DNA from: Escherichia coli | GTDB taxonomy: Bacteria; Pseudomonadota; Gammaproteobacteria; Enterobacterales; Enterobacteriaceae | Reading direction: 5' to 3' (one strand) | DNA: 64,000 nt | NCBI RefSeq assembly: GCF_003334385.1 | Contig: NZ_QOWN01000001.1 | Shown: positions 45,001 through 48,000 of the stretch, piece after piece | Numbering within the stretch: position 1 is the stretch's first letter | How the letters are laid out: every line of letters begins with the position of its first letter | Made by a program: the position numbers

Positions 45001-48000
45001 CGCCTCCGCAATTTCTGCCGTTTTCCCTCCATCATGCCTGTTCAGAAATTCCAGTATTTCATTCTTCATATATTCACTCATCTCACTGTAACAAAGTTTC
45101 TTCGAATAATAAAAATCATGCTTTCTGTTATCAACGGAAAGGTATTTTTATTCTCTGTGTTTGCTGTGTTTGCTTTATTTGTGCAATTTAGTGAATTTGC
45201 TTTTTATTGGCTTTATTTGATATGTATCACATTTTGCGTTTTATTTTTCTGTGAAAAGAAAGTCCGTAAAAATGCATTTAGACGATCTTTTATGCTGTAA
45301 ATTCAATTTACTATGATGTTTTTATCTGAGTGCATTCTTATTATTAGTGTTTTATTCTAGTTTAATTTTGTTTTGTGGGTTAAAAGATCGTTTAAATCAA
45401 CATTTACAACATAAAAAACTAAATTTAACTTATTGCATGAAGAGTATTTCCGGGCCGGAAGCATATATCCAGGGGCCCGACAGAAGGGGGAAACATGGCG
45501 CATCATGAAGTCATCAGCCGGTCAGGAAATGCGTTTTTGCTGAATATACGCGAGAGCGTACTGTTGCCCGGCTCTATGTCTGAAATGCATTTTTTTTTAC
45601 TGATAGGTATTTCTTCTATTCACAGTGACAGGGTCATTCTGGCTATGAAGGACTATCTGGTAGGTGGGCACTCCCGTAAGGAGGTCTGCGAGAAATACCA
45701 GATGAATAATGGGTATTTCAGTACAACACTGGGGAGACTTATACGGCTGAATGCTCTTGCAGCAAGGCTTGCACCTTATTATACAGATGAGTCGTCGGCA
45801 TTTGACTAAATTATGGCATTCCGGAGTTTCTGGAAGATAAAAAAAGAAGCCCTTATCAGAAAGCAGACAGGTTATATCAGTATTTTGTCGATAAATAACC
45901 TGCCCTGAAAATACGAGAATATTATTTGTATTGATCTGGTTATTAAAGGTAATCGGGTCATTTTAAATTGCCAGATATCTCTGGTGTGTTTAGTAATGAA
46001 AAAGAGGTTGTTATTTATGATTAAGTCGGTTATTGCCGGTGCGGTAGCTATGGCAGTGGTGTCTTTTGGTGTAAATGCTGCTCCAACTATTCCACAGGGC
46101 CAGGGAGAAGTAACTTTCAAAGGAACTGTTGTTGACGCTCCATGTGGTATTGAAACGCAGTCTGCAAAACAGGAAATTGATTTTGGCCAGATCTCTAAAT
46201 CCTTCCTGCAGGAGGGCGGGGAAAGCCAGCCAAAAGATCTGAATATTAAGCTTGTAAATTGCGATATCACAAATTTTAAAAAAGTAACTGGTGGTGGGGC
46301 AGCCAAAGCAGGAAGGGTGGCTCTGACTTTTTCCGGCGTATCCAGTGGGAACAATAAAGATATGCTGCAAACAGTTGGCGCAACTAATACAGCTATCGTT
46401 GTTGTCGCTCCGGATGGCGAACGTGTGAAGTTTGATGGGGCGACCACTACCGGTCCTTCAAATCTGGTTGATGGTGATAACACGATTCATTTTACTGCTG
46501 CGGTCAGAAAGGATGATAGTGGCAAGGATGTAGCTGAAGGTGCCTTCTCAGCAGTTGCGAATTTCAACCTGACTTATCAGTAACAGTAATACGATAATCT
46601 GGTCCGGTAAACAGCGGAAATATTCCGCTGTTTATTTCTCAGGGTATTTATCATGAGACTGCGATTCTCTGTTCCACTTTTCTTTTTTTGCTGTGTGTTT
46701 GTTCATGGTGTTTTTGCCGGTCCGTTTCCTCCGCCCGGCATGTCCCTTCCTGAATACTGGGGAGAAGAACACGTATGGTGGGACGGCAGGGCTGCTTTTC
46801 ATGGTGAGGTTGTCAGACCTGCCTGTACTCTGGCGATGGAAGACGCCTGGCAGATTATCGATATGGGGGAAACCCCGGTTCGGGATTTACAGAATGGTTT
46901 CTCCGGACCTGAAAGAAAATTCAGCCTCCGGCTCAGGAACTGTGAATTTAACAGTCAGGGTGGGAACCTTTTCTCTGATTCCCGGATAAGGGTGACTTTC
47001 GATGGCGTCCGGGGGGAAACGCCGGATAAGTTTAATTTATCCGGTCAGGCAAAAGGCATTAATCTGCAGATAGCTGATGCCAGGGGGAATATTGCCCGGG
47101 CAGGGAAAGTAATGCCTGCAATACCATTGACGGGTAATGAAGAAGCGCTGGATTACACCCTCAGAATTGTGCGAAACGGAAAAAAACTTGAAGCCGGAAA
47201 TTATTTTGCCGTGCTGGGATTCCGGGTCGATTATGAGTGAGTCACTCCGGTGAGATGTCCGGTTATTTATCTTTTTTGTGAATCTGGTGATGCGTGGAAT
47301 GAAAGACAGAATACCTTTTGCAGTCAACAATATTACCTGTGTGATATTGTTGTCTCTGTTTTGTAACGCAGCCAGTGCCGTTGAGTTTAATACAGATGTA
47401 CTTGACGCGGCGGACAAGAAAAATATTGACTTCACCCGTTTTTCAGAAGCCGGCTATGTTCTGCCGGGGCAATATCTTCTGGATGTGATTGTTAACGGGC
47501 AAAGTATTTCTCCCGCATCGTTACAGATTTCATTTGTTGAACCTCAGTCGTCAGGAGATAAGGCAGAAAAAAAATTGCCACAGGCCTGCCTGACATCAGA
47601 TATGGTCAGACTGATGGGGTTAACAGCAGAATCTCTGGATAAAGTTGTTTACTGGCATGATGGTCAGTGTGCGGATTTTCATGGGTTGCCGGGAGTGGAT
47701 ATTCGTCCTGATACCGGAGCGGGCGTATTACGCATCAATATGCCGCAGGCCTGGCTTGAGTATTCTGATGCCACCTGGCTGCCTCCCTCACGCTGGGACG
47801 ACGGCATTCCCGGACTGATGCTGGATTATAACCTCAACGGGACGGTTTCCCGTAATTATCAGGGAGGAGACTCTCATCAGTTCAGTTATAACGGGACTGT
47901 GGGGGGGAATCTGGGGCCCTGGCGCCTGCGGGCTGACTATCAGGGAAGCCAGGAGCAGAGCCGCTACAACGGGGAAAAAACGACAAACAGAAATTTCACA

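What the first reader, a model, noticed from the sequence alone, without database searches (positions are those of the whole stretch)
45082..45494. Intact pap epigenetic switch with no papX after papG
The two GATC sites are 102 bp apart, as in the classical pap regulatory region, so Lrp- and Dam-dependent phase variation is probably functional. The operon ends at papG, with no MarR-like papX gene before the hek-like gene.
Basis: partly seen in the sequence, partly recalled or inferred. Interest (0 to 1): 0.3.

Follow-up and report, generated by a model that had tools for sequence, protein, structure and literature searches.

The report
Ordinary intact pap phase-variation switch
This is the textbook on/off methylation switch of the E. 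coli P-fimbria (pap) operon, intact and followed by a complete class II operon with no papX gene; this layout occurs in hundreds of sequenced E. coli genomes, so it is ordinary.

Summary
Confirmed and ordinary. Window 45082-45494 is the 413-bp papI-papB intergenic region. It holds exactly two GATC sites (45284, 45386), 102 bp apart. Each lies in the published 17-bp box TAAAAGATCGTYTAAAT, in inverted orientation. PapI (77 aa) is identical to the classical Pap(17)I protein. PapB (104 aa) is identical to both CFT073 copies. All eleven genes papI to papG are intact, and PapG is class II.

No papX or remnant exists anywhere in the window. Similarity to the CFT073 papG-papX spacer stops 66 bp after papG. 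An integrase remnant and the tia/hek invasin gene follow. This papG-tia junction occurs in 237 of 5,426 complete E. coli genomes, including type strain ATCC 11775; papG-papX occurs in 385. The operon sits in a roughly 49-kb island at tRNA-Sec (selC), a relative of the CFT073 pheU island. Whether the switch works in vivo is inferred, not shown.

One side observation may deserve more attention than the finding. The operon body has no GATC for 7.2 kb, where 17-28 are expected. The foc, fae, pef and agn43 loci show the same avoidance; fim, sfm and yad do not.

The parts
44848..45081 (-). papI, 77 aa, FaeA/PapI-family winged-helix co-regulator
   Evidence: Intact ORF. Pfam FaeA PF04703, E=9e-31. 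Exact sequence equals 'Pap(17)I 10kDa protein' Q47439 and is seen on at least 1000 contigs. Same as WP_000006207.1 in UID2309220036 and ATCC 11775. Differs from the solved PapI structure 2htj at 2 of 73 aligned residues.
45106..45134 (-). papI promoter candidate: TTGATA, 17-nt spacer, TATTAT
   Evidence: Consensus scan, 10/12 matches. Function inferred.
45155..45181 (.). 9-bp tandem repeats: CTGTGTTTG x2 plus degenerate CTTTATTTG, in the region of PapB binding site 1
   Evidence: Repeat family D1/D2 with spacing 9. Copy number is 1, 2, 3 or 4 in different pap alleles and accounts for intergenic lengths of 404/413/422/431 bp. [quoted passage not shown] Assignment inferred.
45216..45231 (.). CRP(CAP)-like site TTTGATATGTATCACA
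   Evidence: Read directly from the sequence: 9/10 match to TGTGA-N6-TCACA. Its centre lies 215.5 bp upstream of the inferred papBA start, consistent with the -215 CAP site recalled from the title of Weyand et al. 2001. Inferred.
45276..45292 (.). Distal GATC box (Lrp site 5): ATTTAGACGATCTTTTA, GATC at 45284-45287
   Evidence: Its reverse complement TAAAAGATCGTCTAAAT equals the published distal box, Y=C (PMC4417163). It contains ACGATC.
45381..45397 (.). Proximal GATC box (Lrp site 2): TAAAAGATCGTTTAAAT, GATC at 45386-45389
   Evidence: Equals the published proximal box, Y=T (PMC4417163). It forms a 27-nt inverted repeat with the distal box.
45403..45431 (+). papBA promoter candidate: TTTACA, 17-nt spacer, TAACTT
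   Evidence: Read from the sequence. Too weak for the strict scan, as expected for an activator-dependent promoter. Position inferred. One SNP relative to CFT073 (C at 45401) lies 2 nt upstream.
45495..45809 (+). papB, 104 aa
   Evidence: Pfam PapB PF03333, E=1e-36. 100% identical to both CFT073 copies and to ATCC 11775.
46017..53955 (+). papA, H, C, D, J, K, E, F, G-II structural genes, all intact
   Evidence: Coordinates, lengths, absence of internal stops and identities are. papA 46017-46583, papH 46653-47240, papC 47299-49809, papD 49895-50614, papJ 50651-51232, papK 51242-51778, papE 51805-52326 (divergent allele, 72-78% identity), papF 52401-52901, papG 52945-53955. PapG matches solved PapG-II 7lhg_G over all 336 residues.
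46240..53430 (.). GATC-free stretch of 7,191 bp inside the operon body
   Evidence: 0 observed against 27.6 (composition) or 19.8 (second-order Markov) expected. Over the pap coding sequences, 4 observed against 17.2 +/- 3.4 in synonymous-codon shuffles, with 0 of 500 shuffles as low.
53956..54021 (+). 66 bp after the papG stop shared with papX-bearing operons, with two hairpins; the homology breakpoint is at 54021/54022
   Evidence: 100% match to CFT073 pap1 up to 54021 and nothing beyond. Fold -23.1 kcal/mol, z -1.2, so not a convincing terminator. CFT073 pap2 and ATCC 11775 continue to match the window past this point.
54315..55061 (+). tia/hek-family outer-membrane invasin gene, 248 aa
   Evidence: RefSeq annotation 'invasion outer membrane protein Tia', 100% identical in UID2309220036 and ATCC 11775. 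Preceded by an integrase remnant in related genomes. The review treats Hek and Tia as one entity (PMC7545054).
60028..60122 (-). tRNA-Sec (selC), the attachment site of the island that carries the operon
   Evidence: ARAGORN and Rfam RF01852. Integrase at 58544-59728 on the minus strand. A 24-bp direct repeat of the selC 3' end lies at 10679-10702 and 60028-60051.

Best explanation
The region is the canonical pap regulatory region. It is a heritable, methylation-based ON/OFF switch that drives a complete class II P-fimbrial operon.

Mechanism, from established knowledge of the pap system:
- OFF state: Lrp occupies promoter-proximal sites 1-3. It covers GATC-prox (45386), blocks the papBA promoter and keeps that GATC unmethylated, while Dam methylates GATC-dist (45284).
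- Switching: after replication, PapI raises Lrp affinity for the ACGATC-containing distal sites 4-6.
- ON state: Lrp-PapI shields GATC-dist, Dam methylates GATC-prox, and CRP-cAMP bound about 215 bp upstream activates papBA.
- Feedback: PapB binds the 9-bp-repeat site next to the papI promoter and raises papI transcription, which locks the ON state.

The operon lacks papX because this island lineage has a different junction 66 bp after papG: an integrase remnant followed by tia/hek and a phosphoethanolamine transferase gene. Expression of this operon therefore cannot by itself deliver a PapX repressor to flhDC.

Shown here: every cis element and both local regulators are present and unmutated; the structural genes are intact; papX is absent. 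Inferred: actual Lrp, PapI and Dam occupancy, switching, and promoter positions.
For: - Two GATC sites 102 bp apart, in exact matches to the published 17-bp boxes (PMC4417163). The 102-bp spacing plus a PapI-like protein is the stated signature of this switch family (PMC2909390).
- PapI is identical to Pap(17)I; I recall pap-17 as the allele on which the switch was first worked out.
- PapB is identical to both CFT073 copies. Pfam assigns FaeA and PapB families.
- The intergenic region differs from CFT073 pap2 by three SNPs and one 9-bp repeat, none inside the GATC boxes.
- Eleven intact genes; PapG-II.
- papX is absent and the breakpoint maps to 54021.
- The same regulatory region (at least 80% coverage) occurs in 1,220 of 5,426 complete genomes, and the same papG-tia junction in 237.
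- The mechanism is summarised in PMC11316696 and PMC10073500.
Against: - There are no functional data, and no methylation calls are available.
- The window shows only local components. Dam, Lrp, CRP, H-NS, the CpxAR system and the PapR sRNA lie elsewhere.
- The 9-bp repeat copy number (2 here; 1-4 in other alleles) and the SNP at 45401 next to the inferred -35 could alter switching rates.
- The Lrp sites other than 2 and 5 were not compared with a published footprint. I could not obtain the classical sequence or the primary papers.
Confidence: 0.9

Rival explanations
1. The switch looks intact but is quantitatively different, or effectively locked. The number of 9-bp repeats in the PapB site 1 region, or the SNPs near the -35, would change PapB occupancy or helical phasing between the papI promoter, the CRP site and the Lrp sites. 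That would shift OFF-to-ON rates away from the classical values.
For: Repeat copy number varies from 1 to 4 among otherwise near-identical alleles, and each repeat shifts the papI side by 9 bp relative to the CRP and Lrp sites. The C at 45401 differs from both CFT073 copies. From my own memory of Holden et al. 2007, which I could not read, the two CFT073 operons switch at different rates.
Against: All indels fall outside the GATC-to-GATC interval and outside the CRP-to-promoter interval, so the geometry known to matter is untouched. The 2-repeat allele with this exact PapI also occurs in strain UID2309220036, and the PapI sequence itself is seen on at least 1000 contigs, which argues against a defective form.
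Confidence: 0.3
2. The operon is silent in its host whatever the state of its own switch, because of trans effects. These could be cross-regulation by PapI/PapB homologues of other fimbrial operons in the same genome, strong H-NS silencing of the island, or PapR sRNA repression of papI.
For: The closest genome carries four places matching the papI-papB query, so paralogous regulators are likely in such strains. PapR represses papI post-transcriptionally (PMC4546395). H-NS binds the whole intergenic region (PMC11316696).
Against: These effects modulate the switch in the model strains and do not abolish it. Nothing in the window points to permanent silencing. All nine structural genes remain free of inactivating mutations, which suggests continued selection for expression.
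Confidence: 0.1
3. The absence of papX is a secondary loss peculiar to this strain, a recent deletion, and not an inherited alternative architecture.
For: The sequence is shared with papX-bearing operons for 66 bp after papG and then breaks next to an integrase remnant, the kind of scar that recombination leaves.
Against: The identical junction occurs in 237 complete genomes, at selC and at pheV, including type strain ATCC 11775 at 100% identity. CFT073 pap2 has it too, truncated by an IS3. It is therefore an old, widely inherited module and not a strain-specific event. Which arrangement is ancestral cannot be decided here.
Confidence: 0.05

Closest known systems
pap-17 regulatory region of E. 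coli C1212 (I recall this as the Low laboratory's model for Lrp/PapI/Dam phase variation)
   Same: PapI is identical residue for residue to Pap(17)I, Q47439. The two GATC boxes match the published 17-mers and the 102-bp spacing.
CFT073 pap2 on PAI-CFT073-pheU
   Same: Same island backbone: ireA, PAPS reductase/IbrB-like genes, pgtABCP, AlpA-like HTH gene, then pap. PapB is identical. The intergenic region differs by 3 SNPs. The same papX-less sequence continues about 135-155 bp past papG.
   Different: The window's island sits at selC, not pheU. It has 2 instead of 3 nine-bp repeats. PapI differs at 2 residues (D17, L62). The papA and papE alleles differ (83.5% and 74% identity). The window keeps tia/hek and downstream genes where CFT073 has an IS3 insertion.
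CFT073 pap1 on the pheV island, the papX-bearing operon
   Same: Same gene order papI to papG-II, identical PapB, 102-bp GATC pair, and 97-100% identity for PapH, C, D, J, K, F and G.
   Different: pap1 continues into papX (183 aa, MarR-like), which represses flhDC and is transcribed both with the operon and from its own promoter (PMC6246914). The window has no papX. pap1 has one 9-bp repeat.
pap-tia module of E. coli ATCC 11775 (type strain) at pheV
   Same: The papG-tia junction is 100% identical over 950 bp. PapI, PapB, PapF, PapG and Tia are identical.
   Different: A different tRNA site. It has 3 nine-bp repeats and a third GATC between the two regulatory ones. PapA is only 64% identical. 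Its phosphoethanolamine transferase gene is split by an IS21-family element.
Sister Lrp/Dam switches of the sfa/foc, fae (K88) and pef operons
   Same: A divergent PapI-like and PapB-like gene pair. In the foc example, two of the GATC sites lie 102 bp apart. The structural-gene body is also strongly GATC-depleted.
   Different: The structural genes are unrelated or only distantly related, and adhesin specificity differs. foc/sfa carries sfaX and sfaY after the adhesin gene.

Membership tests
Pap-type Lrp/PapI/Dam epigenetic switch | Divergently transcribed PapI-family and PapB-family regulator genes flanking an intergenic region of about 400 bp | tested here: met
   papI 44848-45081 (-) matches Pfam FaeA at 9e-31. 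papB 45495-45809 (+) matches Pfam PapB at 1e-36. The intergenic region is 413 bp.
Pap-type Lrp/PapI/Dam epigenetic switch | Two GATC sites spaced 102 bp apart in the intergenic region | tested here: met
   45284 and 45386 are the only GATC sites in the region. The signature is stated in PMC2909390.
Pap-type Lrp/PapI/Dam epigenetic switch | Each GATC lies in the conserved inverted box TAAAAGATCGTYTAAAT, which contains ACGATC | tested here: met
   Exact match at both sites, Y=C distal and Y=T proximal (against PMC4417163). 27-nt inverted repeat.
Pap-type Lrp/PapI/Dam epigenetic switch | Six Lrp binding sites, 1-3 overlapping the papBA promoter and 4-6 distal | tested here: inconclusive
   Sites 2 and 5 are verified by sequence. 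The rest is supported only by near-identity to CFT073 pap1 and pap2. No published footprint sequence was obtainable.
Pap-type Lrp/PapI/Dam epigenetic switch | CRP site upstream of the Lrp sites, and a PapB site next to the papI promoter | tested here: met
   TTTGATATGTATCACA at 45216-45231 and the 9-bp repeats at 45155-45181. Both are identified by sequence only.
Pap-type Lrp/PapI/Dam epigenetic switch | Mutually exclusive methylation of the two GATC sites and heritable ON/OFF expression | not testable with these tools
   Needs methylation-sensitive sequencing or reporter assays.
Class II P-fimbrial operon (papIBAHCDJKEFG) | All eleven genes present in order and uninterrupted | tested here: met
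   no internal stops, canonical lengths, and at least 96.9% identity to CFT073 for PapH, C, D, J, K, F and G. PapA and PapE are divergent alleles.
Class II P-fimbrial operon (papIBAHCDJKEFG) | PapG adhesin of class II | tested here: met
   Matches PDB 7lhg_G 'PapG-II' over residues 1-336 with 5 substitutions. RefSeq names the orthologue papG-II.
papX-bearing pap operon (fimbria-motility cross-talk module) | A MarR-like X gene directly downstream of papG | tested here: not met
   No tblastn or blastn match to CFT073 PapX anywhere in the window. Homology ends 66 bp after papG.
papGII-positive pathogenicity island | Integrase-flanked island at a tRNA site that carries papGII | tested here: met
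   tRNA-Sec at 60028-60122. Integrase at 58544-59728. 24-bp direct repeat at 10679 and 60028. selC is a reported minority site for papGII-positive islands (PMC7686366).

The most novel reading that the evidence does not exclude
The near-total absence of GATC from the body of the operon (none for 7.2 kb downstream of papA) may be a selected, functional companion of the Dam-dependent switch and not an accident. The same synonymous-level avoidance is seen in four independent PapI/PapB-controlled fimbrial operons (pap, foc, fae, pef) and in agn43. It is not seen in fim, sfm or yad. A GATC-free body might keep processive Dam, SeqA or MutH activity away from the neighbourhood of the two regulatory GATC sites, or lower mismatch repair across antigen genes. 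I found no paper that makes this link, but my search covered open-access text only.
Probability: 0.25. Interest if true: 0.6.

Novelty: already known. Interest (0 to 1): 0.12.

Why it matters
As a finding it matters little. It identifies the window as part of a selC-integrated papGII pathogenicity island with an apparently working P-fimbrial switch. That is useful for annotating the strain as a likely invasive uropathogen, since papGII islands mark invasive UPEC lineages (PMC7686366). The lack of papX means this operon does not itself couple fimbriation to flagellar repression. That has phenotypic consequences only if the strain has no other X gene (focX, sfaX, or papX elsewhere), which the window cannot show.

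The side observation could matter more. If GATC-free operon bodies are a designed part of Dam-based epigenetic switches, they would add a new cis-requirement to a textbook mechanism. They would also give a sequence signature for finding such switches.

Tried and rejected
- papX remnant or pseudogene: searched with protein and DNA (word size 7) across the whole window; nothing found.
- NCBIfam has no models for PapI, PapB or PapG. Pfam and PDB were used instead.
- Primary papers were not in the held library: Simms and Mobley 2008, Nou et al. 1995, Holden et al. 2007. Statements about them rest on reviews or on my memory and are marked as such.
- One literature search was wasted on word-start matches to 'pap'.
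- The hairpins after papG do not fold better than shuffles (z -1.2 and -1.4), so I do not claim a terminator.
- 'All Dam switches have GATC-free bodies' is rejected as a universal rule. P22 gtrABC has 5 GATC against 8.9 expected, no more depleted than the rest of the phage.
- The avoidance is not exclusive to Dam-switch loci either. espP and a CP4-like cbtA region are equally depleted.
- The PapB/PapI pair on IncY plasmid pAPEC201602 is followed by two giant ORFs and not by fimbrial genes, and has normal GATC density. It was unusable as a fimbrial comparison.
- The Salmonella Dublin and pDW54_1 loci were fragmentary and carry little weight.
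Full report
**Observation**

The coordinates 45082-45494 are exactly the intergenic region between two genes. 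One is a 77-aa ORF on the minus strand (44848-45081). The other is a 104-aa ORF on the plus strand (45495-45809). The window holds 184 GATC sites, and only two lie in this region, at 45284 and 45386, 102 bp apart.

Two sites in 413 bp of 30.5% G+C DNA is close to the 1.1 expected from composition, so the count says nothing. The arrangement is what is non-random:
- The two sites form the cores of a 27-nt inverted repeat (45266-45292 / 45381-45407).
- Their 17-bp boxes are ATTTAGACGATCTTTTA, which read on the other strand is TAAAAGATCGTCTAAAT, and TAAAAGATCGTTTAAAT.
- This is exactly the published pap box TAAAAGATCGTYTAAAT, with Y=C at the distal site and Y=T at the proximal site (PMC4417163).
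- I compared ten pap regulatory regions: the window, UID2309220036, CFT073 pap1 and pap2, ATCC 11775, GN06489, LTC101, ST131 strain 81009, bovine strain CE0011b and EV36. The intergenic length is 404, 413, 422 or 431 bp, but the two boxes are always 102 bp apart. A foc regulatory region also has two GATC sites 102 bp apart.
- The literature describes this spacing plus a PapI-like protein as the signature of the family (PMC2909390).

**Identity of the parts**

- PapI: the minus-strand ORF matches Pfam FaeA (9e-31). It is identical in every residue to 'Pap(17)I' (Q47439) and is recorded on at least 1000 contigs. Relative to the solved PapI structure (2htj) it has N17D and F62L. These are therefore natural, common alleles and not lesions.
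- PapB: the plus-strand ORF matches Pfam PapB (1e-36) and is identical to both CFT073 PapB copies.
- Structural genes: papA, H, C, D, J, K, E, F and G follow, all with canonical lengths and no internal stops. PapA and PapE are divergent alleles, which is normal for these antigens (PMC7686366).
- PapG class: PapG is class II. It aligns end to end with PDB 7lhg_G 'PapG-II' with five substitutions, and RefSeq names the orthologue papG-II.
- Other cis elements read from the sequence:
  - a good papI promoter, TTGATA-17-TATTAT, at 45134-45106 on the minus strand;
  - two 9-bp repeats CTGTGTTTG plus a degenerate third at 45155-45181, where reviews place PapB site 1 (PMC11316696);
  - a CRP-like site TTTGATATGTATCACA at 45216-45231;
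  - a weak papBA promoter candidate, TTTACA-17-TAACTT, at 45403-45431.
- The promoter assignment and the 215.5-bp distance from the CRP centre are my inference. They agree with what I recall of the literature.

**No papX**

CFT073 PapX (183 aa) gave no credible match anywhere in the window, by tblastn or by sensitive blastn. The CFT073 papG-papX spacer matches the window perfectly for 66 bp after the papG stop, up to 54021, and then not at all.

From there the window matches a module that in other genomes begins with an integrase remnant. That module carries tia (the Hek/Tia invasin family; PMC7545054) and a phosphoethanolamine transferase gene.

This junction is common:
- 237 of 5,426 complete E. 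coli genomes have it, including type strain ATCC 11775 at 100% identity. In that strain the module sits at pheV.
- 385 genomes have a papG-papX junction.
- CFT073 pap2 has the same papX-less sequence for about 135-155 bp after papG, before an IS3 cuts it.
- Published island tables list several 'Hek, P pilus' islands.

papX absence is therefore an inherited alternative architecture, not a peculiarity of this strain.

**Context**

- The operon lies in an island bounded by tRNA-Sec at 60028-60122 with its integrase at 58544-59728.
- A 24-bp direct repeat of the selC 3' end lies at 10679-10702, which gives an island of about 49 kb.
- The island content matches PAI-CFT073-pheU: ireA, a PAPS reductase/IbrB-like pair, pgtABCP and an AlpA-like HTH gene.
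- selC is a documented minority site for papGII-positive islands (PMC7686366).
- The nearest complete genome is a Thai bloodstream isolate, 99.9% identical over the regulatory region.

**Mechanism**

Nothing here departs from the established model (PMC11316696; PMC10073500).
- Lrp on sites 1-3 represses papBA and protects GATC-prox.
- PapI redirects Lrp to sites 4-6 after replication.
- Dam then fixes the ON pattern by methylating GATC-prox.
- CRP activates transcription, and PapB feeds back on papI.

The local components are shown to be intact. Actual switching is inferred. They are real possibilities, though: strain 81009 (ST131) has a frameshifted papB next to an otherwise perfect 102-bp pair.

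**Verdict on the finding**

The only variable feature of possible regulatory consequence is the copy number of the 9-bp repeat: 2 here and 1-4 elsewhere.

**Side observation: a GATC-free operon body**

Between 46236 (in papA) and 53431 (in papG) there is no GATC for 7,191 bp of 48.8% G+C DNA. Composition predicts 27.6 and a second-order Markov model predicts 19.8. I then shuffled synonymous codons within each gene, which keeps the proteins and each gene's codon usage (500 shuffles per set).

| Locus | GATC observed | Expected from shuffles | Shuffles as low |
|---|---|---|---|
| pap coding sequences (window) | 4 | 17.2 +/- 3.4 | 0/500 |
| foc | 1 | 14.6 | 0/500 |
| fae (K88) | 0 | 15.2 | 0/500 |
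| pef (pSLT) | 1 | 10.8 | 0/500 |
| agn43 | 0 | 8.7 | 0/500 |
| fim | 17 | 17.7 | not depleted |
| sfm | 21 | 20.8 | not depleted |
| yad | 19 | 22.2 | not depleted |
| eight core K-12 genes | 34 | 30.8 | not depleted |
| espP | 1 | 9.9 | 0/500 |
| CP4-like cbtA segment | 2 | 12.4 | 0/500 |
| P22 gtrABC | 5 | 8.9 | 19/500 (0.038) |

- The pgt, ireA, spv, microcin and par/sam genes are also normal.
- In the 477 kb of DNA I held, the eight longest GATC-free gaps (5.8-8.3 kb) are all bodies of PapI/PapB-type fimbrial operons. That sample is not unbiased, because the loci were chosen around such operons.
- The link is not clean. espP and a CP4-like cbtA segment are as depleted as the Dam-switch loci. 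hlyCABD and yeh are mildly depleted. The Dam/OxyR-controlled gtr operon of P22 is no more depleted than the rest of that phage.
- GATC-free regions of at least 1 kb are already known to be enriched in genomic islands and prophages (PMC4659465; PMC6602927).
- I found no paper connecting them to Dam-switch operons. That is weak evidence of novelty.
- I rate a functional link at about one in four.

Noticed in passing
window 46240-53430: There is no GATC for 7,191 bp across papA (3' part) to papG (5' half), against 20-28 expected. Synonymous-codon shuffles of the pap coding sequences give 17.2 +/- 3.4 against 4 observed. The same avoidance occurs in foc (L013), fae K88 (L015), pef (L024) and agn43 (L019), but not in fim, sfm, yad or core genes. 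espP and a CP4-like region are also depleted, and P22 gtr is not.
   Followed up: partly
window 45155-45181: A 9-bp tandem repeat, CTGTGTTTG, lies in the presumed PapB site 1. There are 2 copies here and 1, 3 or 4 in other pap alleles. This is the sole cause of the 404/413/422/431-bp intergenic length classes, and it shifts the papI promoter relative to the CRP and Lrp sites by 9 bp per copy.
   Followed up: partly
window 55236-56738: The phosphoethanolamine transferase gene after tia has an in-frame stop at codon 350 (TAG at 56283-56285; the closest relative has TGG). A patch of 60 substitutions lies between 55901 and 56546, which suggests a recombined segment. The gene is probably a pseudogene here.
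   Followed up: partly
window 10679-10702 and 60028-60051: A 24-bp direct repeat of the 3' end of tRNA-Sec marks both ends of an island of about 49 kb. The island carries ireA, pgtABCP, pap and tia. It is a selC-integrated relative of PAI-CFT073-pheU.
   Followed up: partly
window 11089-15374: This is the second-longest GATC-free gap in the window (4.3 kb). It lies over CP4-like genes (cbtA/cbeA, a JAB-domain gene, an antirestriction gene). In the orthologous UID2309220036 genes, 2 GATC are observed against 12.4 expected by synonymous shuffling.
   Followed up: partly
window 53956-54305: The recombination breakpoint lies 66 bp after papG (54021/54022). The shared 66 bp contains two hairpins. 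What follows is annotated as a tyrosine-integrase remnant in related genomes. A small palindromic GATC cluster, TCGATCGATTCGATCGA, at 54210-54226 precedes tia.
   Followed up: partly
L006 (ATCC 11775) 3444-3865 and L012 (EV36): These pap alleles have a third GATC 44 bp after the distal site, between the two regulatory GATC sites, while keeping the 102-bp outer spacing. Its effect on switching is unknown.
   Followed up: no
L009 (ST131 strain 81009): papB is frameshifted after codon 34, next to an otherwise perfect 102-bp GATC pair and an intact papI. RefSeq annotates only a short 54-aa PapB/FocB fragment, an annotation shared by many genomes in the 95.9% identity class.
   Followed up: no
window 51805-52326: The papE allele is only 72-78% identical to the four other PapE proteins compared, while its neighbours papK and papF are at least 98% identical. 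This is a mosaic antigenic variant.
   Followed up: no
L018 (plasmid pAPEC201602) 2064-10785: A PapB-family and PapI-family regulator pair on an IncY phage-plasmid is followed by two very large ORFs (917 and 1720 aa), not by fimbrial genes. PLSDB leaves them unannotated, and their GATC density is normal. This may be a PapI/PapB-type switch driving a non-fimbrial surface protein.
   Followed up: no
window 27205-27321: An ALIL pseudoknot (Rfam RF01497, 120.9 bits) marks the programmed-frameshift site of an IS3-family element next to ireA, as in the related island of UID2309220036.
   Followed up: no
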